A stretch of DNA of 21,004 nucleotides from Pyrinomonadales bacterium (GCA_038251885.1 JBBSAX010000072.1:1-21004); one strand, 5' to 3'; shown: positions 4,717 to 20,451, counted from the first letter of the stretch. The notes: generated by a model not told the origin, from the letters alone. Made by a program: numbers and translations.

Positions 4717-4725
4717 AATAAAAAT

Positions 4726-5607: not shown

Positions 5608-5647
5608 AAAAAGCCGTCGTTGTAAGTTTTCAATGACGGCTTTTTTC
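5608..5647 (+). terminator. rho-independent terminator after the tesA-like gene
   Basis: AAAAAGCCGTC...GACGGCTTTTTT: a GC stem (5613-5618 / 5635-5640) extended by inner pairs, followed by a T6 tail at 5641-5646. Confidence 0.7.
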
Positions 5648-7056: not shown

Positions 7057-7094
7057 ATTCAATTATTTATAGCTTTATTTAACAAGGTGGAAAA

Positions 7095-7763
7095 ATGAAA
7101 AAATTACTTTTAACAGCTATTTTTATACTGGCGGCGATGTTGCAAGTGTTTGCACAAACGGAAATTGCGCTAAGTTCGGTAAAAGTTGAAAATGCGGATA
7201 CTTCTACGGATAAAGCCGTTTCCGAAACATTGCGGAGCGATCTGCCGATTATTCCGCAGCAGAATAATTATGTCCGTCCGACGGCAGATCAGCGTTTTAA
7301 GCGTTACTTAAACAAAACGGTCGGCACGGGATTGATCGGTGTCGGAATCGGTGCGACGTTTCAGCAAATATCGAACAATCCGCCGGAGTGGGAAAAGACC
7401 GGCAAAGGTTTTGCGCGGCGTTTAGGCTCGAATTTCGGCGAAAATGCGATTCAGGAAACGGTCGCTTACGGCATCGAAGAAACTTTCAAACTCGACAGTA
7501 AATTTTATAAAAGTAAGAAAAGAGATTTGGGTTCGCGCATTAAAAACGGCTTGCTTTCCGGCATTACGGCACGAACGCCGAGTGGGAAAAGAGTATTTAA
7601 CCCCGCGCCGATTATCGGCACTTACACGGCAAATTTGATTTCAACGCAAGTTTGGTATCCGAAGCGTTTTGGTTACAAAGATGGTCTTCGGCAGGGAACG
7701 CAAAGCGTCGGATTTTCAATCGGTTTCGGACTTTTGAATGAATTTTTGTTAAATCGAAAATGA
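7095..7763 (+). CDS. secreted hypothetical protein
   Basis: AAGGTGG lies 7 nt upstream of the ATG. Signal peptide is MKKLLLTAIFILAAMLQVFA/Q. There is an ATGA stop/start overlap with the next permease gene (7760-7763). No domain recognised. Confidence 0.7.
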   Translation: MKKLLLTAIFILAAMLQVFAQTEIALSSVKVENADTSTDKAVSETLRSDLPIIPQQNNYVRPTADQRFKRYLNKTVGTGLIGVGIGATFQQISNNPPEWEKTGKGFARRLGSNFGENAIQETVAYGIEETFKLDSKFYKSKKRDLGSRIKNGLLSGITARTPSGKRVFNPAPIIGTYTANLISTQVWYPKRFGYKDGLRQGTQSVGFSIGFGLLNEFLLNRK

Positions 7764-9022
7764 ATCGCCAGCTTTTTTACGAAACGTGGCGAACGGTTTT
7801 AGATTCAATTCGCTCGCATAAATTACGCGCCGGATTAACGCTGACAGGCGTGATTATCGGCACGGCGGTCGTCGCGTTGGTCGGCGCGGTTTTGACCGGG
7901 CTGTCGCAGCGCGTCGCTGAAGTTTCGGAAAAAAGTTCGCCGAATGTCATTTATTTTACAAAGCAAGACCGCATCGGTCCGTCGCTTCAGCAGCCGACCG
8001 CCGAAGAAAGACAGCGCAAAGACCTTACATACGAAGACATTTTGGCGGTCGCCGCTCTTGATTCGCCGCAAGCTGTTTCGCCGCAGAAAGTTCGCGGTTC
8101 ATATGGTCCTTCGGCAAATATTCCGAAAGTTACCGCGAACAGCCGAACAGCGATTAATCCTTTGATTCTGGGAATTTGGGAGAATGGTCCATTAGTTGTT
8201 AATATTCCAATCGCCAGCGGACGATTCTTCACGGAACAAGAAAGAAAGTCGCGGGCTTCGGTCGCCGTGATCGGCGCGGGCGTGGCAACGCAAATTTTTC
8301 AAGAAACCGACCCGCTCGGCGAAACTATAAAGATTGACGGAAAACTTTTTCGCGTGATCGGCGTTTTGTCAAAAGCGTCCGGCGAAGGCGTGATCGGGAG
8401 CGACGAAATTGACGAGCGTTCGATCTATATTCCATTTGAAACCGCACGGAAAAATTATCCAGAGATTGAAGAAAACGTCATCATCGTTCGTGCGCCGAAG
8501 GGCAAGATTGACGAAGTTCAGGAAGAAGTAACGAATCTCTTGCGTCAAAGGCGCGGAGTTCCATTCGATAAACCGAACAATTTCGGCGTAAATCGTCCTG
8601 AGCAAATATTTACGCTCGTTAATGATATTATCAACGGCTTGGGAACGGTGATCGTGCCGATTGCGCTGGCAAGTTTGCTGGTCGGCGGTGTCGGTGTGAT
8701 GAACATAATGCTCGTTTCGGTCAAGGAACGCGCCGCCGAAATTGGAATCAGACGCGCACTCGGCGCAACGCAAAAAACGATCTTAACGCAGTTTTTGCTT
8801 GAAGCGATGACGCTCACGGGCTTGGGCGGAATCATCGGCATTGCGGTCGGATTAACGCTCGCCTTTTTGGTGCGAATCGTCGTCAGTTTTCCGGCGGCAG
8901 TTCCGATCTGGGCAATTCTTTCGGGCTTCGGCGCATCGGTTTTTATCGGACTTTTTGCCGGAATGTATCCGGCATTTCGCGCCGCCCGACTTGACCCGAT
9001 TGAGGCAATGCGCGGAAACTGA
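7760..9022 (+). CDS. MacB-type ABC permease (MacB periplasmic domain + FtsX), no fused ATPase
   Basis: N-terminus ...LDSIRSHKLRAGLTLTGVIIG (TM1), then a ~250-aa periplasmic segment and FtsX signature KERAAEIGIRRALGATQKTILTQFLLEAMTLTGLGGIIGI. It ends with the family-typical RAARLDPIEAMR. Paralogue of 5881..7056. Confidence 0.9.
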   Translation: MNRQLFYETWRTVLDSIRSHKLRAGLTLTGVIIGTAVVALVGAVLTGLSQRVAEVSEKSSPNVIYFTKQDRIGPSLQQPTAEERQRKDLTYEDILAVAALDSPQAVSPQKVRGSYGPSANIPKVTANSRTAINPLILGIWENGPLVVNIPIASGRFFTEQERKSRASVAVIGAGVATQIFQETDPLGETIKIDGKLFRVIGVLSKASGEGVIGSDEIDERSIYIPFETARKNYPEIEENVIIVRAPKGKIDEVQEEVTNLLRQRRGVPFDKPNNFGVNRPEQIFTLVNDIINGLGTVIVPIALASLLVGGVGVMNIMLVSVKERAAEIGIRRALGATQKTILTQFLLEAMTLTGLGGIIGIAVGLTLAFLVRIVVSFPAAVPIWAILSGFGASVFIGLFAGMYPAFRAARLDPIEAMRGN

Positions 9023-9028
9023 AATAAT

Positions 9029-10192
9029 ATGAACGTAACACATCTCGAATGCGCTAATTGCCATAAAAACTACGAAGCAAATCAATTATTAAATCTCTGC
9101 GGCGAATGCGGCAAACCGCTTCTCGTTCGCTACGATTTGGAGAAAGCGAAAGAAACTTTGACGAAAGATTCGCTTGCTTCGCGTGAATCAAATCTCTGGC
9201 GTTACAAAGAAGTTTTGCCGGTTGAAAATGTTGAAAATATCGTCAGCTTCGGCGAAGGTTGGACACCGCTTTTAGAAACAAAAAAATTGGCTGAATCGCT
9301 TCCCGTAAAATTAAATCTTTTTATCAAAGACGAAGGACAAAATCCGACGCAAAGTTTCAAAGCTCGCGGAATGACGGCGGCGATCTCGATGGCAAAAGAA
9401 TTGGGCATAAAGAAATTAGCCGTGCCTTCGGCGGGAAATGCGGCTGGCGCATTAGCGGCTTATGCGGCACGGGCGGGAATGGAAGCCTTTATATTTATGC
9501 CTTCAGATACGCCGAAAGCGAACATCATCGAATGTCAGCAGACTGGCGCGAATGTTACTTTGATTGACGGTTTAATTACCGATTGCGGCGCGGAAGTCGC
9601 GCGACGAAAAGACTCGGAAGGTTGGTTTGACGTTTCGACTTTGAAAGAACCGTATCGCGTCGAAGGCAAAAAGACGATGGGTTACGAACTCGCCGAGCAA
9701 TTCAAATGGAATTTGCCGGACGTGATTTTATATCCGACGGGCGGCGGAACGGGTTTGATCGGAATGTGGAAGGCGTTTGACGAGATGGAAAAAATGGGTT
9801 GGATCGGTGAAAAAAGACCGCGAATGATTTCCGTTCAATCTCTGACCTGTGCGCCGATTGTTCGCGCTTTTCACGAAGGCAAACGCTTTGCCGACGAATT
9901 TGAAAATGCCGAAACGGTCGCTTCCGGTTTGCGAGTTCCGAAGGCGATCGGCGATTTTTTGATAATTGACGCACTTCACGAATCGCACGGAACTGCAATC
10001 GCTGTTTCCGATGAAGAATTGGTCAAAGCCGTCAAGGAAATCGGCGCAGCGGAAGGCATTTTTACTGCACCCGAAGGTGCGGCGTGTCTTCCGGCTTTGC
10101 GAACTATGATCGAGCAGGATTTGGTCAAAGAAAATGAAACTGTCGTGATTTTCAACACCGGCGCGGGCGTGAAATATTTGGAGTGTTTCTAA
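9029..10192 (+). CDS. thrC: threonine synthase-like PLP-dependent enzyme (fold type II) with N-terminal zinc ribbon
   Basis: N-terminal CANC...CGEC knuckles, [12 protein letters not shown]-lysine motif QSFKARGM and glycine loop [10 protein letters not shown]. Starts 6 nt after the permease stop. The family assignment is solid. Substrate specificity (ThrC versus a related synthase) cannot be settled from sequence alone. Confidence 0.75.
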
Positions 10193-10193
10193 A

Positions 10194-10472
10194 AAAAACG
10201 GAACGCGAACTTTAGTTCGCCGGAAAACTTAAATGTTTTGAACAAATTAATTGAAGGATGTGCAAATTAAAGTTTATTGCTTTCAATAATTAATACTCGG
10301 AATAGATGAGAGATGAAAGATGATAACTGATAGATTAAATCTGTCATCTGTTACCTATCAATTATCATCTACTCCGAATAGCTTTTCTTAAATTTCTAAT
10401 TTGCACATCCTTCAACTAATTCTATAAATTAACGATTTATGACTGGCGAACTAAAGTTCGTGTTCCGTTTTT
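10194..10472. repeat. ~279-bp nested imperfect palindrome (MITE-like element, giant terminator hairpin or structured RNA)
   Basis: Outer arms 10194-10221 / 10445-10472 are complementary at 27/28 positions; the one mismatch is G-T. Inner arms 10251-10269 / 10397-10415 are perfect over 19 bp. Core arms 10319-10333 / 10355-10369 match at 14/15. Each outer arm also holds its own GCGAAC-N4-GTTCG(C/T) hairpin. The left end is an A-run and the right end a T-run. Confidence 0.8.
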
Positions 10473-10561
10473 CATATCAATTTAAAACCATTTTACAGAA
10501 ATCTACGAAGTAAAAAGTGAAGTCTTAACAAAAATAGCAATACGAACAAGGGAATATAAAA

Positions 10562-11284
10562 ATGAATTTAGAAGGAAAAACAGTATTAATTGTCGGCGCG
10601 GGACGCGGAATAGGTCGTGCTGTCGCCGAACTTTTTTCAAACGAACACGCCAATATCGTCATCAGTTCGCGCAGCGAAGCCGAATTGATGGAACTCGAAT
10701 ATAAATTGAACACGAAGGGAAATCCGAATGTTCTTGCACTAGCGGCTGATGCTTCGGTCGAAGCGGACGTAAAATCTCTGGTCGAGCAAAGTATCAGTAA
10801 ATTCGGTTCGATAGATTTTTTGATTCACGCGGCGGGAATGGGAGTTTTGAAACCATTCGGCGAACTGACGCTTGAAGATTTTGATAACCTGATGAATGTC
10901 AATGTCCGAACGGCTTTTAATGTTTTGCAAGCGGTTTTGCCGCAAATGGCAGAGCAAAAATTCGGTCGCGTTGTGGCAATTCCGGGAATTTTGGGCAAAG
11001 CACCGATGATGCAGGCTTCCGTCTATTGCGCGGCAAAATACGCTCTGACGGGAATGATAAAATGTTTGAAGGACGAATATAAACGCTATGGAATTCGTTT
11101 TTCATTAATGCACTTCGGCGGCGTTGATTCTTCGTTTTGGGACAATATCACGATGAAGGTTCAGCGCGACAAAATGCTTTCGGTCGAAGCGGCGGCAAAT
11201 GCCGTATTTTTCGCCGCGACACAATCCGGCGAAGGCGTAATGTCGGAAATTGTTTTAATGCCCGAATCTCATCAACTCGTTTGA
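10562..11284 (+). CDS. short-chain dehydrogenase/reductase (SDR) family oxidoreductase
   Basis: Rossmann motif VGAGRGIGRA, LIHAAG, catalytic YCAAKYAL (YxxxK). 240 aa, typical of classical SDRs. Confidence 0.9.
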   Translation: MNLEGKTVLIVGAGRGIGRAVAELFSNEHANIVISSRSEAELMELEYKLNTKGNPNVLALAADASVEADVKSLVEQSISKFGSIDFLIHAAGMGVLKPFGELTLEDFDNLMNVNVRTAFNVLQAVLPQMAEQKFGRVVAIPGILGKAPMMQASVYCAAKYALTGMIKCLKDEYKRYGIRFSLMHFGGVDSSFWDNITMKVQRDKMLSVEAAANAVFFAATQSGEGVMSEIVLMPESHQLV

Positions 11285-11341
11285 ATGACTGAGATTTCGT
11301 GATTTTATTTGAATGGCGAAGGTAAAAAAATAGCAAATAGT

Positions 11342-11377
11342 AAAAAGTCGGATTGATTAAGTTCAATCCGACTTTTT
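11342..11377 (+). terminator. rho-independent terminator after the SDR gene
   Basis: AAAAAGTCGGATTGA-TTAAGT-TCAATCCGACTTTTT: an 11-bp perfect stem (11346-11356 / 11363-11373), a 6-nt loop and a T5 tail. Confidence 0.8.
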
Positions 11378-11510
11378 GCATTAAATTTTAATTTTTCGGT
11401 TCAATAAACAAATCTTAAAAAAAAACTAAAGTTTTATAATTTTCAGCCGAAATGTAGAAAGGATAAATTTCCATTATCCAAATTCTTATTACGCAAAATA
11501 TTATAAAACA

Positions 11511-12422
11511 ATGTTTAGTTCAGTAAATCAGACAACCACCTTTGAAGAAACAACAGCACCACCCGAAAATAGTATTGCGAAAATTCTCAAAGCAAATCTG
11601 CCGCCTTTGCCGGGAAGTGTTTTTCGCGTTTTGGAATTATTGCGCGATGTCAATGTTACAAATTCCGCCTTAGCAAACGCAGTCGGTTACGATCCATTAT
11701 TGGCGGCGCGTCTTTTGCGTCTGGCAAATTCGACATATTATTCACGCCAAAATAATGTCACGACGATTTCCAGAGCGATTGACACAATCGGCACGAAAGC
11801 CCTTTATGACGCGGTAATGCTCGGCGTTGCCGCCAACACATTTTCTAAAGAAATCGAAGGTTCGGAAACCGGACGCGCAATTTGGGAGCATTCGTTGGCA
11901 GTCGCAATTTTAGCCCGAAAATTGACCGATGTTCTGCAAATGCGCGGTGCGGAAAACGCCTTTCTCTGCGGACTTCTGCACGACATCGGCAAATTGATTT
12001 TATTAAAATCCGATCCCGAAGGTTACAACTCTCTTTTAGACAGAAATGATGAGGATGAAATGATGAAATCCGAAGATGAATTCTTCGGGGTTAATCACGC
12101 CGAAGTCGGCGCATTATTGATCAAACGCTGGAACTTACCGGACGCAATTTCATCCGTTATCCTTTATCATCACGAGCCTGCAAAAACCGATCAAGCGATT
12201 TTTACCGCGCACGTTATCAGCGTAGCTGACCTGATCGCCGATACTTATGGTTACGGGGTTTCTCCGATAAAAGAAGACAATTATACGGAAGACGAAGAAA
12301 TCTCGTTGTTGCAATCGGACTCGATATTCGCACTTCATTTAACACAATCGCAGATGTTCGAAGCGTGGGAAAGTATTCAGCCGAATCTGCAAGATATTGT
12401 TAAAACTTTCAGAGGAAAGTGA
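11511..12422 (+). CDS. HDOD domain-containing protein (stand-alone)
   Basis: Typical HDOD blocks: LPPLPGSVFRVLELL, GYDPLLAARLLRLANSTYY, IGTKALYD, WEHSLAVA, CGLLHDIGKLIL, NHAEVGALL, ILYHHEP. No receiver, GGDEF/EAL or other partner domain. Confidence 0.85.
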   Translation: MFSSVNQTTTFEETTAPPENSIAKILKANLPPLPGSVFRVLELLRDVNVTNSALANAVGYDPLLAARLLRLANSTYYSRQNNVTTISRAIDTIGTKALYDAVMLGVAANTFSKEIEGSETGRAIWEHSLAVAILARKLTDVLQMRGAENAFLCGLLHDIGKLILLKSDPEGYNSLLDRNDEDEMMKSEDEFFGVNHAEVGALLIKRWNLPDAISSVILYHHEPAKTDQAIFTAHVISVADLIADTYGYGVSPIKEDNYTEDEEISLLQSDSIFALHLTQSQMFEAWESIQPNLQDIVKTFRGK

Positions 12423-12548
12423 AAAGTTGACAGCAAGTTATCAGAGTTAAAGAAAGTTTGCGGATAGTTTGAAAACATCCAACTTGCTCCAAAAAACGCT
12501 TTAAAATTATTAAATTCCAATTTATAAAATACGCCGAAATAAATAAAT

Positions 12549-13427
12549 ATGATTCCATATACCAATCAATACGAACCGCCAATGCCCGTTATCAAATCTA
12601 AAGTTGATATTGAAACTCTTTTGATCACAAAATTACCGCCGTCGCCCGGAACGATGATGCGGATCACCACGCTTTTGCGCGATTATAATGCTTCGACACG
12701 GGAAGTTACGCAAGCGATCAGCTACGAACCTGTTTTAGTTGTTCGTATTTTGCGTCTGGCAAATTCGCCCGTTTACGCGCTTGAAAGAAACGTAACTTCG
12801 ATTCAGGCGGCAATGGCAGCGGTCGGCACGAAAGCGATTCACGACATTGTAATGATCGGTCTGGCTTCGACGACATTTTCAAAAGAGATTAAAAATTCGC
12901 CGATTGCCAGAAAGATTTGGGAACATTCGCTCGCGGTCGCAATGACAGCGCGTGAACTGAGCAAAGTTCTCGGAATGCGCGGAACGGAAGAAGCCTTCAC
13001 CTGCGGACTTCTGCACGACATCGGTAAACTCATTCTTTTGAGCAACGATATTGAAGGCTATCCGACGATTTTGGGCTACACCGGAGAAAACGATATGCTG
13101 TGGGGCGAAGACGAATTATACGGCTACAATCACACCGAAGTCGGTTCGCTGATTGCACGGCGTTGGAATCTGCCGGAAGAAGTTTATTATTCGATTCTGC
13201 ATCACCACAACCCGTCGCAATCGGATCAGGGAAATATTGTCACACATCTCGTTGACATTGCCGACACAATGGCAAATATCAAAGGCTACGGCTTACGCCC
13301 CGAAGAAGAAGAAAAACTCGAAAATTCCGAGTCCGTGATGAAACTCGGTTTTACTCCAGTGCATCTCGAAAACGCTTGGAAAAATGCCGAAAGCAACATC
13401 AACGAAGTGATAAAAACTTTTGCTTAG
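12549..13427 (+). CDS. HDOD domain-containing protein (stand-alone), paralogue of 11511..12422
   Basis: The same block order: LPPSPGTMMRITTLL, SYEPVLVVRILRLANSPVY, VGTKAIHD, WEHSLAVA, CGLLHDIGKLIL, NHTEVGSLI, ILHHHNP. Confidence 0.85.
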   Translation: MIPYTNQYEPPMPVIKSKVDIETLLITKLPPSPGTMMRITTLLRDYNASTREVTQAISYEPVLVVRILRLANSPVYALERNVTSIQAAMAAVGTKAIHDIVMIGLASTTFSKEIKNSPIARKIWEHSLAVAMTARELSKVLGMRGTEEAFTCGLLHDIGKLILLSNDIEGYPTILGYTGENDMLWGEDELYGYNHTEVGSLIARRWNLPEEVYYSILHHHNPSQSDQGNIVTHLVDIADTMANIKGYGLRPEEEEKLENSESVMKLGFTPVHLENAWKNAESNINEVIKTFA

Positions 13428-13594: not shown

Positions 13595-13834
13595 ATGAAT
13601 TGGCAAGATAAAATCGTTTCGGATAAAGAAATTTTGCTTGGCAAGCCGACAATTAAAGGAACACGGCTTTCGGTCGAGTTTGTTCTCGAACGTCTGGCAA
13701 GCGGTTGGACGCAAGAACAGCTTTTGGAAAATTATCCGCGTTTGACAAGAGAAAATTTGCAGGCGGTTTTCGCTTACGTGGCGGATTGTTTCAAGGACGG
13801 TTTGATGTATGAACTTTCGGCAGAAACCGTGTAA
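13595..13834 (+). CDS. DUF433 domain protein (antitoxin-like, orphan)
   Basis: GAGG lies 9 nt upstream of the ATG. The sequence ILLGKPTIKGTRLSVEFVLERLASGWTQEQLLENYPRLTRENLQAVFAY matches my recollection of the DUF433 signature (GxPxIxGTRxxV...Y). Confidence 0.75.
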   Translation: MNWQDKIVSDKEILLGKPTIKGTRLSVEFVLERLASGWTQEQLLENYPRLTRENLQAVFAYVADCFKDGLMYELSAETV

Positions 13835-13873
13835 GAAAATTTTTGTTATAATTTCAGCAAGGAGAAAAGAGAA

Positions 13874-14125
13874 ATGGAAATTACATTTACAATTTCTGAT
13901 GAAACAGCCAAACAACTTTCCAGACGCGCCGGTAAAGAAGGGCAGAATGTTTCGACCTTTATGGCTAAAATTGCCGAGCGCGAAGCGAAAAAACCGACGC
14001 TCGACGAAGTTCTTGCGCCCGTCCGCCGTCAGTTTGCCGAAAGCGGTATGAACGAAAACGAATTAACCGAACTCGTCAGGGAAGAAAGAAAGGCGATTCA
14101 AAAAGAAAAGCGCGGGGAAAAATAG
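13874..14125 (+). CDS. ribbon-helix-helix-type antitoxin (partner of the PIN gene)
   Basis: AAGGAG lies 8 nt upstream of the ATG. The N-terminal beta-strand EITFTISDE plus helix AKQLSRRAGKEGQNVSTFMAKIA looks RHH/CopG-like. Its stop TAG (14123-14125) abuts the ATG of the PIN gene (14126). The tail is charged. Confidence 0.65.
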   Translation: MEITFTISDETAKQLSRRAGKEGQNVSTFMAKIAEREAKKPTLDEVLAPVRRQFAESGMNENELTELVREERKAIQKEKRGEK

Positions 14126-14611
14126 ATGTATGACAAAAAAATCGCCGTTGTTTTTGATTGCAACATTTATATTCAAATTGTCTTGAACTCTTTCGGCGCG
14201 GCGAAATCCTGTTATAATTTGATTGATAAAAACGAAATCGAACTCTTTATAACGCAAGAAATTTTAGAAGAAACAGCCGATGTCTTATCGCGTCCGCGAA
14301 TTAAAAAGTTGGTTCCTGCGCTGACTCCTGCACTGATCGAAGATTTTTTGGAAGACATTGCTTCAAAAGCCGTAATAATCGAAAATATTCCCGAAGAATT
14401 TAAATACGAACGCGACCCGGACGACGCGCTTTATATCAATTTAGCTGTTATAGTTCCAGCCGACTACCTGATTAGTTTAGACAGAGATTTGCTTGATTTG
14501 ATGAAAGACGATTATAAGGAAAGCCGGGAATTTATGAAGCGTTATCCTTTTATAAAAGTGCTAACGCCGCAAGAACTTTTAAAGAAGATAGATGAACTAA
14601 GAAAACTTTGA
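14126..14611 (+). CDS. PIN-domain toxin (PIN_3 / 'putative TA system toxin component, PIN family' type)
   Basis: Acidic PIN positions occur in the expected order: VVFDCNIY, ITQEILEETADVL, DPDDALYINLAV, LISLDRDLL. It abuts the upstream small antitoxin gene. Confidence 0.8.
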   Translation: MYDKKIAVVFDCNIYIQIVLNSFGAAKSCYNLIDKNEIELFITQEILEETADVLSRPRIKKLVPALTPALIEDFLEDIASKAVIIENIPEEFKYERDPDDALYINLAVIVPADYLISLDRDLLDLMKDDYKESREFMKRYPFIKVLTPQELLKKIDELRKL

Positions 14612-14615
14612 TTAA

Positions 14616-14690
14616 ACACTCGTCGGATTCGCTTTTACTTCCGACAAACATTTTGAACAAGCGGGATTTATTAAACTTTTAGAGAAATAA
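14616..14690 (+). pseudogene. 3'-terminal remnant of a vapC-type PIN gene
   Basis: 14638-14690 is 48/53 identical to the last 53 nt (16200-16252) of the intact vapC-like gene. It reads ...AFTSDKHFEQAGFIKLLEK* against ...AFTSDKHFEQAGFIKLLGK*. The frame is closed by TAA at 14613-14615, so only ~24 codons survive. Confidence 0.85.
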
Positions 14691-14776
14691 AATATCTTCT
14701 CTGTGGCAATCCACGTAGAAAAACCGCGAAATATTTTTAATAATCAAGCAAGAAACAAATTTGGAGAATTTAAGTT

Positions 14777-15499
14777 ATGCGTCTTCTTGCTTTTTATTTT
14801 ACAGTTGCGTTTTTAGCTTTTGGGATTGGAATATTGATCGTTTCAAAATTCTATCAAAAATCGGAAAATACAATTATTAATGTAGTTGAAACAAAGATAA
14901 TTCAAGATAAAAAGAATATTTCCAAAGATTTCGGAACTGGTTCTGCAACTTCTGACAGACTAATGAATGAGCCTGTTTATGTTCCAAAATTGCATAAACC
15001 GACGTGTAGCGACAAAAAATTATTACCGATTTGGAATGAATTAAAAAAAGACAAAGAGTTTAAAGAACGCGAAAAAGAATTTTATCAGAAAGCCGATTGC
15101 TCAGAAATGTTGCATATTCAAAAAGCAGACTTAAATGATGATGGGCAGAAAGAGATTATTTTATCAGGAAATAACAGTAATTTATGTGATGCCGCCTTCA
15201 GTTGTTTTTATTGGATTTTCGAGAAAAAGGGCAACAAATATAAACAAATTCTTCGCTCAACTGCTACTGGTTACAATGAAATTGCTAATTATACAATAAA
15301 GAGAGGCATTGAAATTGGCAAAACAAAATCAAATGGTTATCGGGCAATTATTTTGAGAGGCGGTCCAGGTTATCAAACATTTCAATCTACATTTCGGTTT
15401 GAAGATAATAAATATGAAGAAAAGGAATGTTTGACTTTTGATGTTGTTCTTAATAATAAGGATTGGGTTAGAAGTTGCAAGGAAGCGTGGAAAGAATAG
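14777..15499 (+). CDS. membrane-anchored hypothetical protein (cargo 1)
   Basis: GGAG lies 10 nt upstream of the ATG. N-terminal TM anchor MRLLAFYFTVAFLAFGIGILIV. It contains a DLNDDGQKEII FG-GAP/VCBS-like turn and several Cys. A 60-nt sample at the start is 20/60 G+C, markedly AT-richer than flanking genes. Confidence 0.65.
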   Translation: MRLLAFYFTVAFLAFGIGILIVSKFYQKSENTIINVVETKIIQDKKNISKDFGTGSATSDRLMNEPVYVPKLHKPTCSDKKLLPIWNELKKDKEFKEREKEFYQKADCSEMLHIQKADLNDDGQKEIILSGNNSNLCDAAFSCFYWIFEKKGNKYKQILRSTATGYNEIANYTIKRGIEIGKTKSNGYRAIILRGGPGYQTFQSTFRFEDNKYEEKECLTFDVVLNNKDWVRSCKEAWKE

Positions 15500-15544
15500 T
15501 TCAATTGAATATAATGCTCCATAAAACTTGGAAAAATCTCAATA

Positions 15545-15591
15545 ATTTGTTAGTTTCAACCTTTAATTTCTGCAACTAAAACGGAAAATTT
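15545..15591 (+). repeat. copy 1 of a 47-nt junction repeat (5' region of the antitoxin-vapC pair)
   Basis: ATTTGTTAGTTTCAACCTTTAATTTCTGCAACTAAAACGGAAAATTT is 43/47 identical to 16812-16858. Weaker similarity extends ~20 nt upstream (AAACTTGGA / AAATTTGGA). Confidence 0.9.
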
Positions 15592-15597
15592 ACAGCT

Positions 15598-15834
15598 ATG
15601 ATAAAAGTCAAAGGAAAGGTAGAAAACGGCAAAATTCTCGCGCTCGAACCTGTGGATGATTACGAAGGCAAAGACGTAATTATAACTTTAGATGACGAGC
15701 CGGAATCGGAAAATCAAAGCGGTTGGAAAAGATTGTTGACGGTTATCGAAGAAAACCAAATTGACGCGAATATTACCGATTTAGCACATCAGCACGACCA
15801 TTATTTATATGGCAAATCAAAGCGTGAAGATTAA
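15598..15834 (+). CDS. antitoxin (AF2212/DUF104-like N-terminus) paired with VapC
   Basis: MIKVKGKVENGKILALEPVDDYEGKDVIITLDD resembles the short DUF104-type antitoxin fold. 78 aa with an acidic tail. It overlaps the start of the PIN gene by 26 nt. Confidence 0.6.
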   Translation: MIKVKGKVENGKILALEPVDDYEGKDVIITLDDEPESENQSGWKRLLTVIEENQIDANITDLAHQHDHYLYGKSKRED

Positions 15835-16252
15835 ACCGCGCGAAAATGTTTTTGCCGACACAGCCGCTTTTATCGCGCTTCTGATTCGCAGAGATGAGTT
15901 TCATCAAAAAGCTAACGAAATAATGGCTGAGTTGAGCGGAAAAGACACAAAATTATTTGTTACCGAACTAATTCTTATCGAACTTGCCAACGCTCTTTCA
16001 TCAGTCGAACTTCGAGCGCGAGCCGTGATTTTGATTGACGAATTACAGACGCTTCCGAATGTTGAAATCATTTGGTCAAGCACCGAACTCTTTAAAAAAG
16101 CGTGGACTCTCTACGGCGAAAGACCCGACAAAGAATGGAGTTTGACCGACTGCGCGAGCTTCGTCGTGATGAAAGAACTCGGAATCAATCTAGCATTCAC
16201 CTCCGACAAACATTTTGAACAAGCAGGATTTATTAAACTTTTGGGAAAATAA
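15809..16252 (+). CDS. vapC: VapC-type PIN-domain toxin
   Basis: The four conserved acidic positions are in PIN order: VFADTAAFIAL, TELILIELANAL, SLTDCASFVVM, AFTSDKHFEQAGF. 147 aa, overlapping the upstream antitoxin. The start could instead be GTG 15824. Confidence 0.85.
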   Translation: MANQSVKIKPRENVFADTAAFIALLIRRDEFHQKANEIMAELSGKDTKLFVTELILIELANALSSVELRARAVILIDELQTLPNVEIIWSSTELFKKAWTLYGERPDKEWSLTDCASFVVMKELGINLAFTSDKHFEQAGFIKLLGK

Positions 16253-16325
16253 TATTATGAATCCGGTTACTTTTTGTTTTACGGTTGCACTATTAGTATT
16301 CGAAACTGTGTTTGATTAAATTCTT

Positions 16326-16772
16326 ATGTCTAAAATTATTCGTTGGAATACGCCATTTACAGATACTCAATATCCTTCGGTAGAATTTTTGACTACGATT
16401 GAACAAGATAAATATAATGTTCTAAAAGTTTTAGTTGCGCCTTCTGGAATAGATAAATATCCGAAGTATTTAATGAATTTTGGACAGGTTATTGCCTTTA
16501 CCTGTATGGAAGAAGCAAATGCTCCTGATCGTGGTTTTGATTCCGTTTCAGAAGAGATTGAACCACATCTATCAACTTATAAATGGATTGATTCACCTTG
16601 GTTGAAATCATACGAATCTCAAATACATTTTATTCCATCAGGTCATTTGGGATATTTTTCGCATTACTTAATTTTTGGTGGAGATAGCAATGTAGAAGTA
16701 ATTACACCTTATGAACCATTAATAGAAGTAGTTGAGAAAAAAAGACTCTTTAAGGTTGAACGCGAACTTTAG
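16326..16772 (+). CDS. hypothetical protein (cargo 2, 148 aa)
   Basis: Uninterrupted ORF in a very AT-rich stretch with no clear RBS and no domain recognised. Its last codons (GAA CGC GAA CTT TAG) lie within a 16-mer shared with the arm of the palindrome at 10.2 kb. Confidence 0.5.
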   Translation: MSKIIRWNTPFTDTQYPSVEFLTTIEQDKYNVLKVLVAPSGIDKYPKYLMNFGQVIAFTCMEEANAPDRGFDSVSEEIEPHLSTYKWIDSPWLKSYESQIHFIPSGHLGYFSHYLIFGGDSNVEVITPYEPLIEVVEKKRLFKVEREL

Positions 16773-16811
16773 TATTTTCGGAATCAAATAAATTTGGACA
16801 ATAATGTTGAA

Positions 16812-16858
16812 ATTTGTTAGCCTTAACCTTTAATTTCTGCATCTAAAACGGAAAATTT
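16812..16858 (+). repeat. copy 2 of the 47-nt junction repeat, here upstream of the radical SAM operon
   Basis: ATTTGTTAGCCTTAACCTTTAATTTCTGCATCTAAAACGGAAAATTT is 43/47 identical to 15545-15591. It ends 32 nt before the ATG at 16891. Confidence 0.9.
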
Positions 16859-16890
16859 TTACTTAGCTTTTTTTACATTTGAGGATAATT

Positions 16891-18846
16891 ATGTTTAGTG
16901 ATAATTTCAGACGCGGCGAAGGGAAAGGGAAAGGGAAAGCGGGTTCAAAGATTGCTTCAAAACTGGCGGATGTCGGTTGGAAGGCGTTTCAGGCGGTGAA
17001 TAAATCTTTGCCGGAAGGGAAATCTATTCAGCCGAATTGGGCGGCGGAACCGCTTTTGAAAAGCTATGAACGCACTGCGCCGCCGCTCGGATTTCCGCGT
17101 GAAACGGATTCTTTGTGTCCGAAATGCGTCAAGCAAGTGCGCGAAGGTGTGATAAATAAAGACATTCCGCTGGAGATTTTGATGAATTCGCATCCGGGCG
17201 AGATCAAGGCGCAGATTGTCGAAGAAAACGGGCAAGTCGTGATGCGGAAAACCTGCCCGACGCACGGCGAATTTGTGGACGTGATGGCGACCGATCCGGC
17301 GTTTTTAGAGCGTATCGAATCGCTTTTTTACGGACGCGATTTTCGTTCCGCCGAAGACGAACACATCCACAAACACGGAACTTCCGACATCAAATACGGA
17401 CGCGGCGCGGTTTTGACGGTTGATCTGACGAACCGCTGCAATATGATGTGCAACCCGTGTTTTATGGACGCAAATCAAGTCGGCTACGTTCACGAACCGA
17501 CATTTGAAGACACGAAAGCGATATTAGACCGCGCGATTTCGTTCAAACCGAAACGTCAAATTATCATTCTATTTTCCGGCGGTGAACCGACGATTGCGCC
17601 GCACTTTTTAGAATCGGTTGCGTATGCGAAAAAGATCGGTTTTTACCGAATCTTAGCGGCGACGAACGGAATTCGTTATGCCGAAGATATAGAATTTTGC
17701 AAAGCGGCAAAAGAAGCCGGACAACACGGCGTTTATCTGCAATTTGACGGCGTTTCAGAAGAAAAAAACAAACATCGCGGAGTCGGAAATTTGTTCGACG
17801 TAAAACTTCGCGCGATTGAAAATCTCGCGTCGGTCGGCATCAAAGTTACGCTTGTCACGACAATTGTAAATACGATAAATAACGATGGAATCGGCGACAT
17901 CGTAAAGTTCGCCGCTGACAATATTGATAAAGTTCAAACCATCGCATTTCAGCCGGTTTCATTTACGGGACGCGACGAAGATGTTTCCGATAAAGACCGA
18001 ATCGAGCAGCGTTACACGCTCGCGGGAATGGCGCAGGATTTGGATACGCAAATGGACGGAACGCTCAAACCTCTGCGCGATTGGTTTCCGCTTTCGTCTT
18101 ATTCAGCATTTACTTCCGTGATGGATATGCTGCAAGGTGCGGACGCGCCGTGGGGTTGGTCTTCGTGCAATTGTCATCCGAATTGCGGGATTTTCACGTT
18201 GATGATCGTCAACAAAAAATCCGGCGAAATTCGTTCGCTTTTTGAATTTTTCAATTACGAACAATTTATGAAAGACGTGGCGACGATCACCGACACGGCT
18301 CGCGGAAAAAAGCTGACGATGGCGCAACTCGGAATGGCGATTATGCGAAATTACAACGCCGCAAACGCGCCCGAAGGTTTTCCCGTTTCGCAGATTCTGA
18401 ATCTGTTCAAACCGTCGTCCGCCGATTCAAATTCGGATCGTAATGACCGAATGAAGCAGGAAAAATCGGAAGAAGATGTCTGGCGAGTTTTGTGCGTCGA
18501 AGGAATGTGGTTTCAAGATTTATTCAATTACGATTTCCGCAGAACCGAAATGTGTGTCATTCCTTATGGAACACAAGAAGGCGAAGTTTCGTTTTGCGCT
18601 TATAATACGGGAGTCGGCTGGCGGCAAATCATCGAAGAAATGCACAAAACCGCGAGCCTGGGCGAATGGTATCAAGAACACGGTCGCCACGCCGTCTATG
18701 CGAAAGGCAAAGAAGTTCCCGGAATCAAAAAATCCCGCTCTATTTCTCTACCTGTAATTGCTAATATTGTTTCGGAAGACAACGACGCGCCGAGTGTTAC
18801 GCCGTATTTGATTGAGGAAGAAGAATCTGCAACATTAAATGTGTAA
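16891..18846 (+). CDS. radical SAM enzyme with Tes / GDGT-MAS (tetraether lipid synthase)-like architecture
   Basis: GAGGA lies 5 nt upstream of ATG 16891; the ORF is open from TTG 16879. Motifs in order: CPKC...CPTHG zinc-ribbon/rubredoxin-like pair, radical SAM triad CNMMCNPC, FSGGEPT, ATNGI, YLQFDG, FQPVSFTGR, Cys cluster CNCHPNC, and C-terminal MCVIPY...SFCAYN. Radical SAM membership is near certain. The Tes-family assignment rests on my recall of the family's motif order, not on an alignment. Confidence 0.8.
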   Translation: MFSDNFRRGEGKGKGKAGSKIASKLADVGWKAFQAVNKSLPEGKSIQPNWAAEPLLKSYERTAPPLGFPRETDSLCPKCVKQVREGVINKDIPLEILMNSHPGEIKAQIVEENGQVVMRKTCPTHGEFVDVMATDPAFLERIESLFYGRDFRSAEDEHIHKHGTSDIKYGRGAVLTVDLTNRCNMMCNPCFMDANQVGYVHEPTFEDTKAILDRAISFKPKRQIIILFSGGEPTIAPHFLESVAYAKKIGFYRILAATNGIRYAEDIEFCKAAKEAGQHGVYLQFDGVSEEKNKHRGVGNLFDVKLRAIENLASVGIKVTLVTTIVNTINNDGIGDIVKFAADNIDKVQTIAFQPVSFTGRDEDVSDKDRIEQRYTLAGMAQDLDTQMDGTLKPLRDWFPLSSYSAFTSVMDMLQGADAPWGWSSCNCHPNCGIFTLMIVNKKSGEIRSLFEFFNYEQFMKDVATITDTARGKKLTMAQLGMAIMRNYNAANAPEGFPVSQILNLFKPSSADSNSDRNDRMKQEKSEEDVWRVLCVEGMWFQDLFNYDFRRTEMCVIPYGTQEGEVSFCAYNTGVGWRQIIEEMHKTASLGEWYQEHGRHAVYAKGKEVPGIKKSRSISLPVIANIVSEDNDAPSVTPYLIEEEESATLNV

Positions 18847-18851
18847 AAGAA

Positions 18852-19763
18852 ATGGAAATTGTCAAAACTTTCAAAAAGTTGGGCGATCTCGCTAAGCTAA
18901 TGATGTTCGGAATGCCCGTGAACGCCGTCGGCTCGATTGATGCAACGAAGCGTTGTAATCTGCGCTGTGAGCATTGTTATTTTTTTGCCGAAGAACATAA
19001 GGAAGTCGAATTAACGGTCGAGGAATGGACGGCGAAATTCGAAGCAATGAAAGCGGCGGGCGATCCGATGATGCTCTGCACTTGGGTTGGCGGCGAACCG
19101 CTCGTTCGCAAACCTTTGATAGACATCGGAAGAAAATACTTCAAACACAACACGATTGTAACCAACGGAACGATGGAATTGCCCGATTGGACTGATTGCA
19201 CTTGGGTAATTTCGATTGACGGCACGGAAGAGGCGTTTGCCAAAATGCGTGCGCCCGGAATTTATCAGAAAATCAAGGAAAACGTCCAACGTCATCCTGA
19301 TTTGAAAATTCAAATTTCGTGCGTTCTGACTTCTCTAACCAAAGACTGCATCGAAGATTTAATTATCGAATGGGGACATCTCGCTCGTGGCGGAATTATC
19401 TTCGATTTCTTTACGCCTGTAAATAAATTGGACGAATCACTCTGGATTGATTGGACGGAACGCGATCAAATAATTGATAAACTGCTTGCGCTTAAAAAGA
19501 AATATCCCGGGAAAATCAATATGCTCGATTCGACGCTCGATTTGATGAAATCGAAAAAATCGAGAAGCGTTACGGACAATTGCCTTTTCAAAGAAAAAGC
19601 CTTCACGCTCGGCGCGGACGGTAAACCGAAGGGCAAATGTATGATGGGCGACAACGCTGATTGCGACCGTTGCGGCTGTGTCGTGCCGTTTTATATGGCG
19701 ACGTTGAACAGCCCGAAATTGGTGTTGCAAGAGGCATTCAAAAAAGCTGCGGGCAGAAATTAA
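18852..19763 (+). CDS. small radical SAM enzyme with C-terminal Cys cluster (twitch/SPASM-like), partner of the upstream radical SAM gene
   Basis: CNLRCEHC triad near the N-terminus, VGGEPL, and C-terminal C-x7-C-x2-C-x-C (CMMGDNADCDRCGC). It starts 5 nt after the upstream stop, suggesting translational coupling. Confidence 0.8.
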   Translation: MEIVKTFKKLGDLAKLMMFGMPVNAVGSIDATKRCNLRCEHCYFFAEEHKEVELTVEEWTAKFEAMKAAGDPMMLCTWVGGEPLVRKPLIDIGRKYFKHNTIVTNGTMELPDWTDCTWVISIDGTEEAFAKMRAPGIYQKIKENVQRHPDLKIQISCVLTSLTKDCIEDLIIEWGHLARGGIIFDFFTPVNKLDESLWIDWTERDQIIDKLLALKKKYPGKINMLDSTLDLMKSKKSRSVTDNCLFKEKAFTLGADGKPKGKCMMGDNADCDRCGCVVPFYMATLNSPKLVLQEAFKKAAGRN

Positions 19764-19806: not shown

Positions 19807-20451
19807 ATGAGTAGCGCAATTTTAGATACAACCGAAACCGTCGGCGCGTCAAATCTCGCCGTTGCAAATCGCGCTTATATTTCGTTTGACGAATATCTCG
19901 AACAATCAAGCGATACGCACATCTGCGAATGGGTTGACGGGGAAATAATAAATATGCCGGGAGCAAGTTTTGAACACCAAACGATAAGTGACTTTTTGCT
20001 GAAAATTGTTAGTTTTTATGTTGAAATTAATGATTTAGGTGTCGCCGTATCTTCGCCTTTTGTGATGAAACTCGAAGCGGAAAGACGTGGGTGCGAACCG
20101 GATATTTTGTTTGTCGGAAATGAAAAAAAACATCTGATAAAGAAAAATTTTCTCGACGGCGCGGCTGATTTGGTGGTTGAAATTATCTCGCCCGAATCTA
20201 TCGGACGCGACCGGGGCGAAAAGTTTGTCGAATACGAAGCCGCCGGAATAAAAGAATTTTGGTTGATTGATCCGACCAGAAAACAAGCCGAATTTTATAA
20301 TTTAAATGACGAAGGTTTTTATCGTTTAGCAAACATTTCCGACGGCGTTTTTCGTTCGCAAATTTTGCCCGAATTTTTTCTGCGCGTCGAATGGCTGTGG
20401 GAAAAAAATCTGCCGACTATCGGTGCGTTAAAAGAGTTAAATTTAATCTAA
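19807..20451 (+). CDS. Uma2-family (DUF820) restriction-endonuclease-like protein
   Basis: GAGGA lies 6 nt upstream of the ATG. PD-(D/E)xK-like blocks typical of Uma2 are present: FEHQ, EPDILFV, DLVVEIISPES...D...K...EY...GIKEFWLIDP. Confidence 0.85.
   Translation: MSSAILDTTETVGASNLAVANRAYISFDEYLEQSSDTHICEWVDGEIINMPGASFEHQTISDFLLKIVSFYVEINDLGVAVSSPFVMKLEAERRGCEPDILFVGNEKKHLIKKNFLDGAADLVVEIISPESIGRDRGEKFVEYEAAGIKEFWLIDPTRKQAEFYNLNDEGFYRLANISDGVFRSQILPEFFLRVEWLWEKNLPTIGALKELNLI

What the first reader, a model, noticed from the sequence alone, without database searches (positions are those of the whole stretch)
16891..19763. Two-gene radical SAM operon headed by a Tes/GDGT-MAS-like enzyme: candidate bacterial membrane-spanning-lipid module
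Seen in the sequence:
- A 651-aa ORF combines a CPKC...CPTHG metal-knuckle pair, the CNMMCNPC radical SAM triad, FSGGEPT, ATNGI, YLQFDG, FQPVSFTGR, a CNCHPNC cluster and a C-terminal MCVIPY...SFCAYN block.
- Five nt later comes a 303-aa second radical SAM gene (CNLRCEHC, GGEPL, C-terminal C-x7-C-x2-C-x-C).

Established knowledge: to my recollection, this domain order and these motif blocks characterise the archaeal tetraether lipid synthase family (Tes / GDGT-MAS). That family joins two lipid tails by radical C-C coupling. Bacterial homologues have been proposed, but not genetically proven, as the source of iso-diabolic-acid and branched-GDGT lipids in Acidobacteria.

Inference: this pair could be a bacterial tail-coupling module. 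I do not know the small partner enzyme from the archaeal system, so it may be the novel part (accessory modification, activation or a second coupling step).

Unusual features:
- a ~75-aa N-terminal extension containing GEGKGKGKAG;
- no Cys motif between the knuckles and the radical SAM triad;
- a location at the end of a toxin-antitoxin cassette array rather than among lipid genes.
Basis: partly seen in the sequence, partly recalled or inferred. Interest (0 to 1): 0.8.

Follow-up and report, generated by a model that had tools for sequence, protein, structure and literature searches.

The report
Divergent acidobacterial Tes-like enzyme with partner
A soil acidobacterium (Pyrinomonadaceae) encodes a full-length but divergent relative of the archaeal enzyme that welds two lipid tails into membrane-spanning lipids, next to a small uncharacterised radical SAM enzyme; this gives a testable but unproven candidate for how these bacteria make iso-diabolic-acid lipids.

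Summary
Two co-directional radical SAM genes, 16891-18846 (651 aa) and 18852-19763 (303 aa), lie 5 nt apart, and every quoted motif is present.

The large protein is a true full-length homologue of Tes/GDGT-MAS:
- PDB 7TOL, sequence E 4e-68.
- Model-to-structure TM 0.85.
- It keeps the rubredoxin site, the radical SAM triad, and the catalytic C-terminal cluster ligands with the labile Met and the conserved Tyr.

It is not a canonical Tes:
- It scores 322 bits against the 450-bit NCBIfam cutoff.
- It lacks all ligands of the N-terminal [4Fe-4S] cluster.
- It falls in a separate clade (bootstrap 100) spread over Acidobacteriota subdivisions 3, 4 and 6.

The small gene is a Twitch/SPASM-like radical SAM enzyme of no described family.
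- It follows the Tes-like gene in 59 of 75 informative Blastocatellia genomes, often beside lpxA/D/B and lptD.
- Sister lineages of the Tes-like gene lack it.
- Its 47-50%-identical relatives elsewhere sit in lipid operons without any Tes.
- So it is an accessory lipid enzyme, not half of a universal module.

The tail-coupling role is a published, still unproven hypothesis (Zeng 2022). Verdict: a new variant of a known kind, of moderate interest.

The parts
16891..18846 (+). Tes/GDGT-MAS-like radical SAM enzyme, 651 aa, of the clade without the N-terminal cluster. Features: amphipathic N-terminal helix (17-39); rubredoxin-type site C76, C79, C122, H125; H-x-H-x-H-G (157-163) in place of the [Fe4S4]N ligands; radical SAM triad C183, C187, C190; [Fe4S4]C ligand equivalents C432, M539, C555, C569 and Y559; extra conserved C426 and C428.
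   Evidence: Pfam Zn_ribbon_HMPTM plus Radical_SAM. NCBIfam Tes 321.7 bits over profile positions 2-483 of 486, cutoff 450. PDB 7TOL E 3.8e-68. Ligand columns. AF2 model pTM 0.82; Foldseek 7tol TM 0.85. Invariant residues in alignment A3.
16773..16890 (+). AT-rich intergenic leader of 118 nt with a GAGGA ribosome-binding site 7 nt before the ATG at 16891. No convincing promoter match was found inside it.
   Evidence: Sequence; promoter/terminator scan at chance level.
18847..18851 (+). 5-nt junction between the two genes (AAGAA). No terminator is predicted here, so co-transcription is likely.
   Evidence: In the nearest relatives the gap is 6-58 nt (L011, L012, L014, L008, L007, L010).
18852..19763 (+). 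Small radical SAM enzyme of 303 aa from an undescribed family. Features: amphipathic N-terminal helix (2-19); triad C35, C39, C42; invariant C76 just before GGEP; invariant C244; C-terminal C263-x7-C271-x2-C274-x-C276, probably one auxiliary Fe-S cluster (Twitch-like).
   Evidence: Pfam Radical_SAM only; best NCBIfam hit 49 bits against a 400-bit cutoff. Invariant columns. AF2 pLDDT 88.5. Foldseek best hits SkfB, SuiB and anSME, TM about 0.6, 14-18% identity.
13595..16772 (+). Upstream toxin-antitoxin array. This is context only and not part of the lipid genes. It holds DUF433, RHH-like plus PIN, a 240-aa unknown ORF, a 78-aa ORF plus PIN, and a 148-aa unknown ORF.
   Evidence: The array is absent from most related loci, which carry lpx/lptD genes instead.
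19807..20451 (+). Uma2-family putative endonuclease downstream (context only). It is also downstream of the pair in L003.
   Evidence: Pfam Uma2 1e-32; PADLOC PDC-S03; L003 gene table.

Best explanation
The 651-aa protein is a peripheral-membrane radical SAM enzyme of the Tes/GDGT-MAS superfamily. It most likely joins the terminal carbons of two lipid alkyl tails, probably iso-C15 acyl chains of glycerolipids. That would yield iso-diabolic-acid-type membrane-spanning lipids, which are typical of subdivision-4 Acidobacteria.

Inferred mechanism, by homology to GDGT-MAS:
- SAM is cleaved at the C183/C187/C190 cluster.
- The 5'-deoxyadenosyl radical abstracts H from a tail terminus.
- The substrate radical is parked on the C-terminal [4Fe-4S] cluster (C432, C555, C569, labile M539).
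- A second SAM activates the second tail.

The enzyme belongs to a distinct Acidobacteriota clade that has lost the surface N-terminal [4Fe-4S] cluster. Its electron-delivery route therefore probably differs from the archaeal enzyme.

The 303-aa gene encodes a separate, Blastocatellia-restricted accessory radical SAM enzyme with one probable auxiliary cluster. It acts on the same membrane-lipid pool. The reaction is unknown: either a tail modification or a head-group modification.

Shown here: homology, ligand conservation, the separate clade, the synteny, and the lipid-gene contexts. Inferred: the substrate, the product, and the partner's reaction.
For: Homology of the large protein:
- Full-length match to the Tes model. 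It is the best NCBIfam hit by a wide margin (322 bits against 211 for TrsS).
- GDGT-MAS crystal-structure sequence match at E 4e-68 over residues 105-597.
- Predicted fold TM 0.85, rmsd 3.9 A to 7TOL. The next hit is only the generic core, at E 4e-7.
- Conserved: rubredoxin C/C/C/H, the radical SAM triad, C338/M439/C455/C470 equivalents and Tyr459 (ligand roles from PMC9433317).

Distribution and literature:
- The clade occurs in Pyrinomonadaceae, Vicinamibacterales and Bryobacteraceae. These correspond to subdivisions reported to make iso-diabolic acid (PMC13159169, PMC13274423).
- No mss homologues were found in Acidobacteria (PMC13159169).
- The protein is very strongly conserved: >=85% identity in more than 120 clusters.

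Partner:
- The Tes-like gene is upstream on the same strand in 59 of 75 informative loci. Loci without it fall into a few sub-lineages.
- Neighbours are lpxD/A, lpxB and lptD.
- Relatives at 47-50% identity lie in lipid operons: PagL, an LpxL-like acyltransferase and an ACP; MlaC and an OEP; a PIP-synthase-like enzyme, an HpnN-like RND transporter, a flippase-like protein and MlaC.
- Both proteins start with strongly amphipathic helices.
Against: - No experiment exists for this clade.
- It fails the curated Tes cutoff and lacks one of the four metallocofactors of GDGT-MAS.
- The related Terriglobus roseus-type subclade has lost the C-terminal cluster cysteines, although subdivision-1 strains make iso-diabolic acid. 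So the clade does not map simply onto the phenotype.
- Only 3 of 14 iso-diabolic-acid-producing acidobacteria had Tes homologues under stringent criteria, and those authors favoured an alternative pathway (PMC13159169).
- These bacteria are mostly aerobes, while characterised tail-coupling enzymes work anaerobically.
- The lpx neighbourhood may be mere conserved gene order.
- The partner works without Tes elsewhere, and Tes-like genes work without it. Any functional coupling is therefore optional.
Confidence: 0.5

Rival explanations
1. The large protein has the Tes fold but carries out a different radical reaction or uses a different hydrophobic substrate. Examples would be outer-membrane or lipid A acyl chains, or another C-C or C-S coupling. 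Iso-diabolic acid in Acidobacteria would then be made by a still unknown enzyme.
For: - Below the curated Tes cutoff, in a separate clade, with the N-cluster lost and extra invariant C426/C428.
- Conserved neighbourhood of lipid A genes rather than phospholipid genes.
- The T. roseus subclade lacks the C-cluster ligands even though that host's group makes iso-diabolic acid.
- PMC13159169 argues for an alternative acidobacterial pathway.
Against: - All catalytic-site features named for GDGT-MAS (the [Fe4S4]C ligands, Met439, Tyr459) are retained.
- The whole fold, including the helical cap region, is retained.
- The clade's taxonomic spread matches the subdivisions that produce iso-diabolic acid.
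Confidence: 0.25
2. The small radical SAM enzyme modifies a polar head group rather than the alkyl tails. The target would be a cyclitol or sugar, in the manner of the Twitch dehydrogenase BtrN or the archaeal calditol synthase. Its link to the Tes-like gene would then be only that both tailor the same membrane lipid.
For: - In L089 the 47%-identical homologue lies directly after a phosphatidyl/archaetidyl-inositol-phosphate-synthase-like gene and a MocA (inositol-dehydrogenase-like) oxidoreductase.
- In Desulfuromonadaceae it lies next to a sugar deacetylase and a GT2 glycosyltransferase.
- It has a single-auxiliary-cluster Twitch-like architecture.
- Radical SAM head-group enzymes are known (PMC13459092).
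Against: - No sequence or fold match to BtrN or SpeY ranks above the generic maturases.
- No glycosyl or inositol genes are conserved next to it in Blastocatellia.
- Its conserved neighbour there is a tail-coupling-type enzyme.
Confidence: 0.2
3. The pair is a peptide (RiPP) or cofactor maturation cassette, or an anti-phage defence module, as the flanking toxin-antitoxin and Uma2 genes and the SPASM/Twitch fold matches might suggest.
For: - TA cassettes upstream and a Uma2/PDC-S03 gene downstream.
- The small protein's nearest solved folds are RiPP maturases (SkfB, SuiB, CteB) and viperins.
- Weak pVip hits in PADLOC.
Against: - The pVip hits are core-only: 47 and 34 bits over about 150 and 90 residues.
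- No precursor peptide or transporter is conserved nearby.
- The TA context is absent in most of the 80 related loci, which carry lpx/lptD genes.
- The large protein matches GDGT-MAS along its whole length.
Confidence: 0.04
4. The large protein is a 7,8-dihydro-6-hydroxymethylpterin dimethyltransferase of methanopterin biosynthesis, as JGI names many homologues and as the Pfam domain name implies.
For: Names given by JGI; Pfam Zn_ribbon_HMPTM.
Against: That annotation stems from MJ0619, which was re-assigned as GDGT-MAS. The methylase activity could not be corroborated (PMC9433317).
Confidence: 0.01

Closest known systems
Tetraether lipid synthase Tes / GDGT-MAS (MJ0619, PDB 7TOL/7TOM; MA_1486; NCBIfam NF045702)
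   Same: - Same domain order: rubredoxin-type zinc ribbon, radical SAM core, C-terminal cluster domain.
- 30% identity, TM 0.85.
- Rubredoxin C/C/C/H, the CX3CX2C triad, the [Fe4S4]C ligands, the labile Met and the conserved Tyr are all kept.
   Different: - All [Fe4S4]N ligands (C73, C77, C80, His) are replaced, by H, H, S, K.
- About 67 extra N-terminal residues containing a conserved amphipathic helix.
- About 50 extra disordered C-terminal residues.
- Extra invariant C426 and C428.
- 322 bits against the 450-bit cutoff.
- A separate clade (bootstrap 100).
- Bacterial host with fatty-acid lipids rather than isoprenoid ethers.
Canonical-type bacterial Tes homologues (e.g. Ca. Koribacter versatilis and Ca. 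Solibacter usitatus, 40-42% identical to MA_1486; Zeng 2022, Chen 2022/2025)
   Same: Acidobacterial hosts, and the same hypothesised role in iso-diabolic acid, tetraester or brGDGT formation.
   Different: Representatives that retain the N-cluster mostly pass the Tes cutoff (421-638 bits). The window protein belongs to the other clade, which lacks that cluster. I did not have the Koribacter or Solibacter sequences, so placing them in the canonical clade is an inference from the identities reported for them.
Mss, bacterial membrane-spanning lipid synthase (Thermotoga maritima, Thermoanaerobacter ethanolicus)
   Same: It is the experimentally shown bacterial tail-to-tail coupling radical SAM enzyme, the same reaction class proposed here.
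   Different: It is a different radical SAM family, reported absent from Acidobacteria and active only anaerobically (PMC13159169). No Mss sequence was available for a direct comparison.
Gms, GMGT synthase (SPASM radical SAM, AhbD-like), whose bacterial homologues cluster with tes in Acidobacteria and Planctomycetes (PMC11214058, PMC11186832)
   Same: It is a second radical SAM gene next to tes in Acidobacteria, it is often auto-annotated as AhbD/Fe-coproporphyrin synthase, and it has a C-terminal Fe-S domain.
   Different: - Gms is over 400 aa, with a six-helix N-terminal domain and a full SPASM domain holding two four-Cys clusters.
- This protein is 303 aa, has one N-terminal helix, has only five or six conserved non-triad cysteines, and gives no SPASM Pfam hit.
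Twitch/SPASM radical SAM enzymes (SkfB, SuiB, anSME, MoaA, BtrN)
   Same: Partial TIM-barrel radical SAM core followed by a short Cys-rich C-terminal domain. These are the best fold matches (TM 0.55-0.65).
   Different: Only 14-18% identity, a different Cys spacing (C-x18-C-x7-C-x2-C-x-C), and a lipid-gene context rather than a peptide or cofactor context.

Membership tests
Tes / GDGT-MAS (NF045702; PDB 7TOL) | Full-length homology: rubredoxin zinc ribbon, radical SAM core and C-terminal cluster domain | tested here: met
   Pfam PF23545 plus PF04055. NF045702 aligned over profile positions 2-483 of 486. 7TOL E 3.8e-68. Foldseek TM 0.85, rmsd 3.9 A.
Tes / GDGT-MAS (NF045702; PDB 7TOL) | Score at or above the curated equivalog cutoff (450 bits) | tested here: not met
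   321.7 bits. Clade relatives score 171-414 bits; N-cluster-containing representatives score 421-638 bits.
Tes / GDGT-MAS (NF045702; PDB 7TOL) | Rubredoxin-type iron site C9-x2-C12...C33-x2-H36 | tested here: met
   C76, C79, C122 and H125 are invariant in A3.
Tes / GDGT-MAS (NF045702; PDB 7TOL) | N-terminal auxiliary [Fe4S4]N cluster (C73, C77, C80 and a conserved His) | tested here: not met
   The aligned residues are H158, H162, S165 and K. There is no Cys between 122 and 183.
Tes / GDGT-MAS (NF045702; PDB 7TOL) | Radical SAM CX3CX2C triad | tested here: met
   C183, C187, C190.
Tes / GDGT-MAS (NF045702; PDB 7TOL) | C-terminal [Fe4S4]C cluster with labile Met439, and conserved Tyr459 | tested here: met
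   C432 (=C338), M539 (=M439), C555 (=C455), C569 (=C470) and Y559 (=Y459) at sequence level. Ligand roles are from PMC9433317. That C338, C455 and C470 are the three Cys ligands is my inference from family-wide conservation.
Tes / GDGT-MAS (NF045702; PDB 7TOL) | Two hydrophobic lipid-binding pockets | tested here: inconclusive
   The fold, including the helical cap (helices 456-522), is retained.
Tes / GDGT-MAS (NF045702; PDB 7TOL) | Placement inside the clade of characterised Tes enzymes | tested here: not met
   In the NJ tree of 32 representatives, the proteins lacking the N-cluster form a separate clade with bootstrap 100. MJ0619 lies in the other clade.
Tes / GDGT-MAS (NF045702; PDB 7TOL) | Tail-to-tail Csp3-Csp3 coupling activity on lipids | not testable with these tools
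   Needs expression or reconstitution followed by LC-MS.
Gms (GMGT synthase) | Over 400 aa, six-helix N-terminal domain, and a SPASM domain with two fully Cys-ligated auxiliary clusters | tested here: not met
   303 aa, one N-terminal helix, six conserved non-triad Cys, no SPASM Pfam hit. The Gms definition is from PMC11186832 and PMC11214058.
Gms (GMGT synthase) | Sequence similarity to characterised Gms (E <= 1e-80 in Garcia 2024) | not testable with these tools
   No Gms sequence or model was available. There is no Gms family among the NCBIfam hits shown.
Mss (bacterial MSL synthase) | Homology to T. maritima or T. ethanolicus Mss | not testable with these tools
   No Mss sequence is held. 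The literature reports no mss homologues in Acidobacteria (PMC13159169).
Twitch/SPASM-type radical SAM enzymes (small protein) | Radical SAM core plus a C-terminal Cys-rich auxiliary-cluster domain | tested here: met
   Invariant C244, C263, C271, C274 and C276. Best folds are SkfB, SuiB and anSME. Cluster binding itself is inferred.
Prokaryotic viperin or other PADLOC defence systems | Full-length match to a defence-system model | tested here: not met
   Only pVip core matches of 47 and 34 bits, covering part of the profile.

The most novel reading that the evidence does not exclude
The 303-aa protein founds a new family of lipid-modifying radical SAM enzymes. The family is present in at least four unrelated lineages, always in membrane or outer-membrane lipid operons, and it would catalyse a so far undescribed reaction. 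In Blastocatellia it has been recruited next to a Tes-like enzyme that lacks the N-terminal cluster. Together they would make the subdivision-4-specific lipid set: iso-diabolic acid and its glycerol ethers or methylated derivatives. That would give a genetic marker for one source group of brGDGT-type proxy lipids.
Probability: 0.2. Interest if true: 0.8.

Novelty: new variant of a known kind. Interest (0 to 1): 0.55.

Why it matters
Branched GDGTs and iso-diabolic-acid lipids underpin widely used temperature and pH proxies. Even so, the enzymes and the producing organisms are still poorly constrained.

This analysis gives a defined acidobacterial Tes-like clade to test:
- It is recognisable by the loss of the [Fe4S4]N ligands, the H-x-H-x-H-G motif and the CxCHPxCG motif.
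- It spans subdivisions 3, 4 and 6.

Such a clade may explain why stringent searches found Tes homologues in only a few iso-diabolic-acid producers.

Mechanistically, a natural Tes variant with one cluster fewer would show which cofactors are dispensable for Csp3-Csp3 coupling.

The small partner adds a candidate for an unknown lipid modification. Because it recurs in lipid operons of other bacteria, its reach would extend beyond Acidobacteria.

Tried and rejected
- Defence-island reading: the PADLOC scan gave only weak viperin-core hits, and the TA context is not conserved. Rejected.
- Small protein as a Gms homologue: rejected on architecture (PMC11186832). A direct sequence comparison was not possible.
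- Small protein as a paralogue of the large one, or of the AhbD-like 459-aa enzyme in L001: only radical SAM core similarity, 24-26% over 120-170 residues.
- Promoter/terminator scan: at chance level, uninformative.
- Supplementary Table S21 of PMC13159169 (which acidobacteria carry Tes homologues) is not held.
- Source names for the distant small-protein homologues gave no taxonomy.
- The ORF-clustering count of adjacency (52 of 67) undercounts because of overlapping-ORF filtering. The tblastn count (59 of 75) is the one used.


Full report
**Observation.**
The window carries two co-directional ORFs, 16879/16891..18846 and 18852..19763.
- The ATG at 16891 has a GAGGA 7 nt upstream. It gives a 651-aa product identical to database protein P0001.
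- The second gene starts 5 nt after the first stop.
- No Cys lies between residues 122 and 183.
- The upstream toxin-antitoxin array (DUF433; RHH plus PIN; a 78-aa ORF plus PIN) and the downstream Uma2 gene are real.
- More than 120 clusters are >=85% identical to the large protein, and dozens are 68-88% identical to the small one. Source names place the window in Pyrinomonadaceae (Acidobacteriota, Blastocatellia, subdivision 4).

**The large protein is a Tes/GDGT-MAS homologue.**
- Pfam finds the HMPTM/GDGT-MAS zinc ribbon plus a radical SAM core.
- The NCBIfam Tes model aligns end to end (profile positions 2-483 of 486) and is by far the best family: 322 bits against 211 for TrsS.
- The only solved relative is GDGT-MAS, at E 3.8e-68 over residues 105-597.
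- An AlphaFold model (pTM 0.82) superposes on 7TOL with TM 0.85, rmsd 3.9 A and 30% identity. The next hit, MoaA, matches only the core.

**Cofactor ligands.**
I used the ligand list of Lloyd et al. (PMC9433317) and an alignment of 35 family representatives with MJ0619.
- Kept: the rubredoxin site (C76, C79, C122, H125).
- Kept: the radical SAM triad (C183, C187, C190).
- Kept: the C-terminal cluster positions C432, C555 and C569, the labile methionine (M539) and the conserved tyrosine (Y559).
- Across 60 sequences of this clade and its sister lineages, H162-G163-x-S165 is invariant and H160 is nearly so. Two extra cysteines, C426 and C428, are invariant in C-x-C-H-P-x-C-G.

**It is not a canonical Tes.**
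- The score of 322 bits is below the curated 450-bit cutoff.
- An exhaustive search of 1.84 billion cluster representatives found 8,255 relatives.
- Representatives that keep the N-cluster mostly score 421-638 bits. Those without it score 171-414 bits.
- In a neighbour-joining tree (491 columns, 100 bootstraps), the proteins without the N-cluster form one clade (bootstrap 100), apart from the clade holding MJ0619.
- The window, other Pyrinomonadaceae and P0243 group together at bootstrap 94.
- The P0243 lineage includes Vicinamibacterales and Bryobacteraceae.
- A third subclade includes Terriglobus roseus WP_014786616.1. It has also lost the C-terminal cluster cysteines.

**The small protein.**
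- It has only a generic Radical_SAM Pfam hit, and no NCBIfam family comes near its cutoff.
- The family is small: 538 database hits and 225 of 185,579 species genomes.
- Invariant residues are the triad, C76 before GGEP, C244, and C263-x7-C271-x2-C274-x-C276.
- A confident model (pLDDT 88.5) matches SkfB, SuiB, CteB, anSME, viperin and MoaA at TM 0.5-0.65 and 14-18% identity. This is the Twitch/SPASM fold type with room for one auxiliary cluster.
- It lacks the size, the N-terminal helical domain and the double-cluster SPASM domain of Gms (PMC11186832).

**Is the pair conserved?**
- All 80 retained species-representative loci come from Blastocatellia.
- By tblastn, the Tes-like gene (76-89% identical) lies upstream on the same strand in 59 loci. 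Of the 21 without it, five have too little upstream DNA, which gives 59 of 75.
- The gap ranges from 6 to 2,851 bp. It is 6-58 bp in six of the window's nearest relatives. Elsewhere it often holds a roughly 200-aa signal-peptide protein (28 loci) or a DUF2846 protein.
- The loci without Tes fall into two or three sub-lineages of the small-protein tree, so adjacency is ancestral.
- Conserved neighbours are lpxD/lpxA-like genes (43 loci), lpxB (35) and lptD (17). The toxin-antitoxin setting is peculiar to the window's lineage.
- Outside Blastocatellia the coupling dissolves. Three sister Tes-like genes have no such partner.
- The partner's 47-50%-identical relatives have no Tes. They lie next to:
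  - PagL, an LpxL/PIM-type acyltransferase, an ACP, B12-radical SAM genes, a GT2 and a deacetylase;
  - an OEP and MlaC;
  - an HpnN-like RND transporter, a flippase-like protein, a PIP-synthase-like transferase, a MocA oxidoreductase, a TolC-like protein and MlaC.

**Interpretation.**
- The large protein most likely performs Tes-type tail-to-tail coupling on bacterial lipids. This fits four points: the catalytic cluster environment is retained; the clade occurs in subdivisions reported to make iso-diabolic acid; Mss is absent from Acidobacteria (PMC13159169); and the protein is very strongly conserved.
- The idea was published in 2022 (PMC8941075). In the literature I could read it is still untested for Acidobacteria (PMC13274423, PMC13459092). 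Chen et al. 2025, cited in PMC13023045, links canonical-type homologues to tetraesters in Koribacter; I could not read that paper.
- Loss of the surface N-cluster implies a different electron path.
- The partner is best read as an optional lipid-tailoring enzyme. The available contexts do not separate tail chemistry from head-group chemistry.
- Both proteins begin with unusually amphipathic helices, which fits membrane-surface enzymes.

**Caveats.**
- There is no experimental evidence.
- The T. roseus-type subclade argues against a simple match between clade and phenotype.
- The NJ tree has no outgroup.
- The lipid pockets were not inspected.
- No Gms, Mss or Cds sequences were available.

**Verdict.**
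This is a new variant of a known kind: a Tes-like clade without the N-terminal cluster, paired in Blastocatellia with an undescribed small radical SAM lipid enzyme. Interest is moderate (0.55). The central hypothesis is already in the literature, but the clade definition and the partner make it sharper and directly testable.

Noticed in passing
window 11511-12422 and 12549-13427 (+): Two tandem paralogous HDOD plus HD-domain proteins (303 and 292 aa), probably signalling proteins. The second gives weak Cas3-HD hits in PADLOC that reflect only the HD domain.
   Followed up: partly
window 1444-9022: A cluster of MacB/FtsX-type ABC transporter genes: an 845-aa double FtsX permease, an ABC ATPase, two MacB-like permeases, a 222-aa unknown ORF and a GDSL lipase. 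This looks like a lipoprotein-release or efflux-type system.
   Followed up: partly
window 13595-16772 and 19807-20451: Three toxin-antitoxin-like cassettes (DUF433; RHH plus PIN TIGR00305; a 78-aa ORF plus PIN), with two unknown ORFs (240 and 148 aa) upstream of the pair. A Uma2 nuclease matching the PADLOC candidate family PDC-S03 lies downstream. The Uma2 gene is also downstream of the pair in L003.
   Followed up: partly
L006-L085, between the Tes-like and small radical SAM genes: The intergenic gap varies from 6 to 2,851 bp and behaves as an insertion hot spot. It holds a roughly 200-aa signal-peptide/C-terminal-TM protein in 28 loci, a DUF2846 protein in 6, and an Unstab_antitox gene in L003. 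A small HisKA-only ORF lies downstream on the opposite strand in 41 loci.
   Followed up: partly
L001 and L002 (Desulfuromonadaceae), about 3000-13000: A lipid-type cluster rich in radical SAM genes. It contains PagL, three B12-radical SAM genes (HpnJ/HpnR/ladderane-lipid-like), a small radical SAM gene, an XrtA-type deacetylase, a GT2, a 459-aa AhbD-like radical SAM/SPASM gene with a roughly 105-aa N-terminal extension (Gms-like architecture), an LpxL/PIM-type acyltransferase and an ACP. It may encode an unusual lipid.
   Followed up: partly
L089 2597-11056: An operon in this order: HpnN-like RND transporter, flippase-like protein, PIP/AIP-synthase-like CDP-alcohol transferase, MocA oxidoreductase, small radical SAM homologue, TolC-like OMP, MlaC. 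It looks like synthesis and export of an inositol-type lipid to the outer membrane. The organism is unknown.
   Followed up: partly
P0244 (Terriglobus roseus WP_014786616.1), P0249, P0264: A subclade of the proteins lacking the N-cluster has also lost the three C-terminal cluster cysteines (A/S/S or H/S/C). Its C-terminus no longer aligns with the Tes model. It is probably a different chemistry or an inactive paralogue, in hosts that make iso-diabolic acid.
   Followed up: partly
L088 (Bryobacteraceae) 9658-10743: A HemN_C-type radical SAM gene (361 aa) lies two genes downstream of the Tes-like gene. It could be a HemW-type protein, or a class C methylase candidate for methylated iso-diabolic or brGDGT chains.
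   Followed up: no
P0310 (representative, 510 aa): It scores 584 bits on the Tes model, but L, S and Y align at the [Fe4S4]N cysteine positions. This could be an independent loss of that cluster within the canonical clade, or a local misalignment.
   Followed up: no
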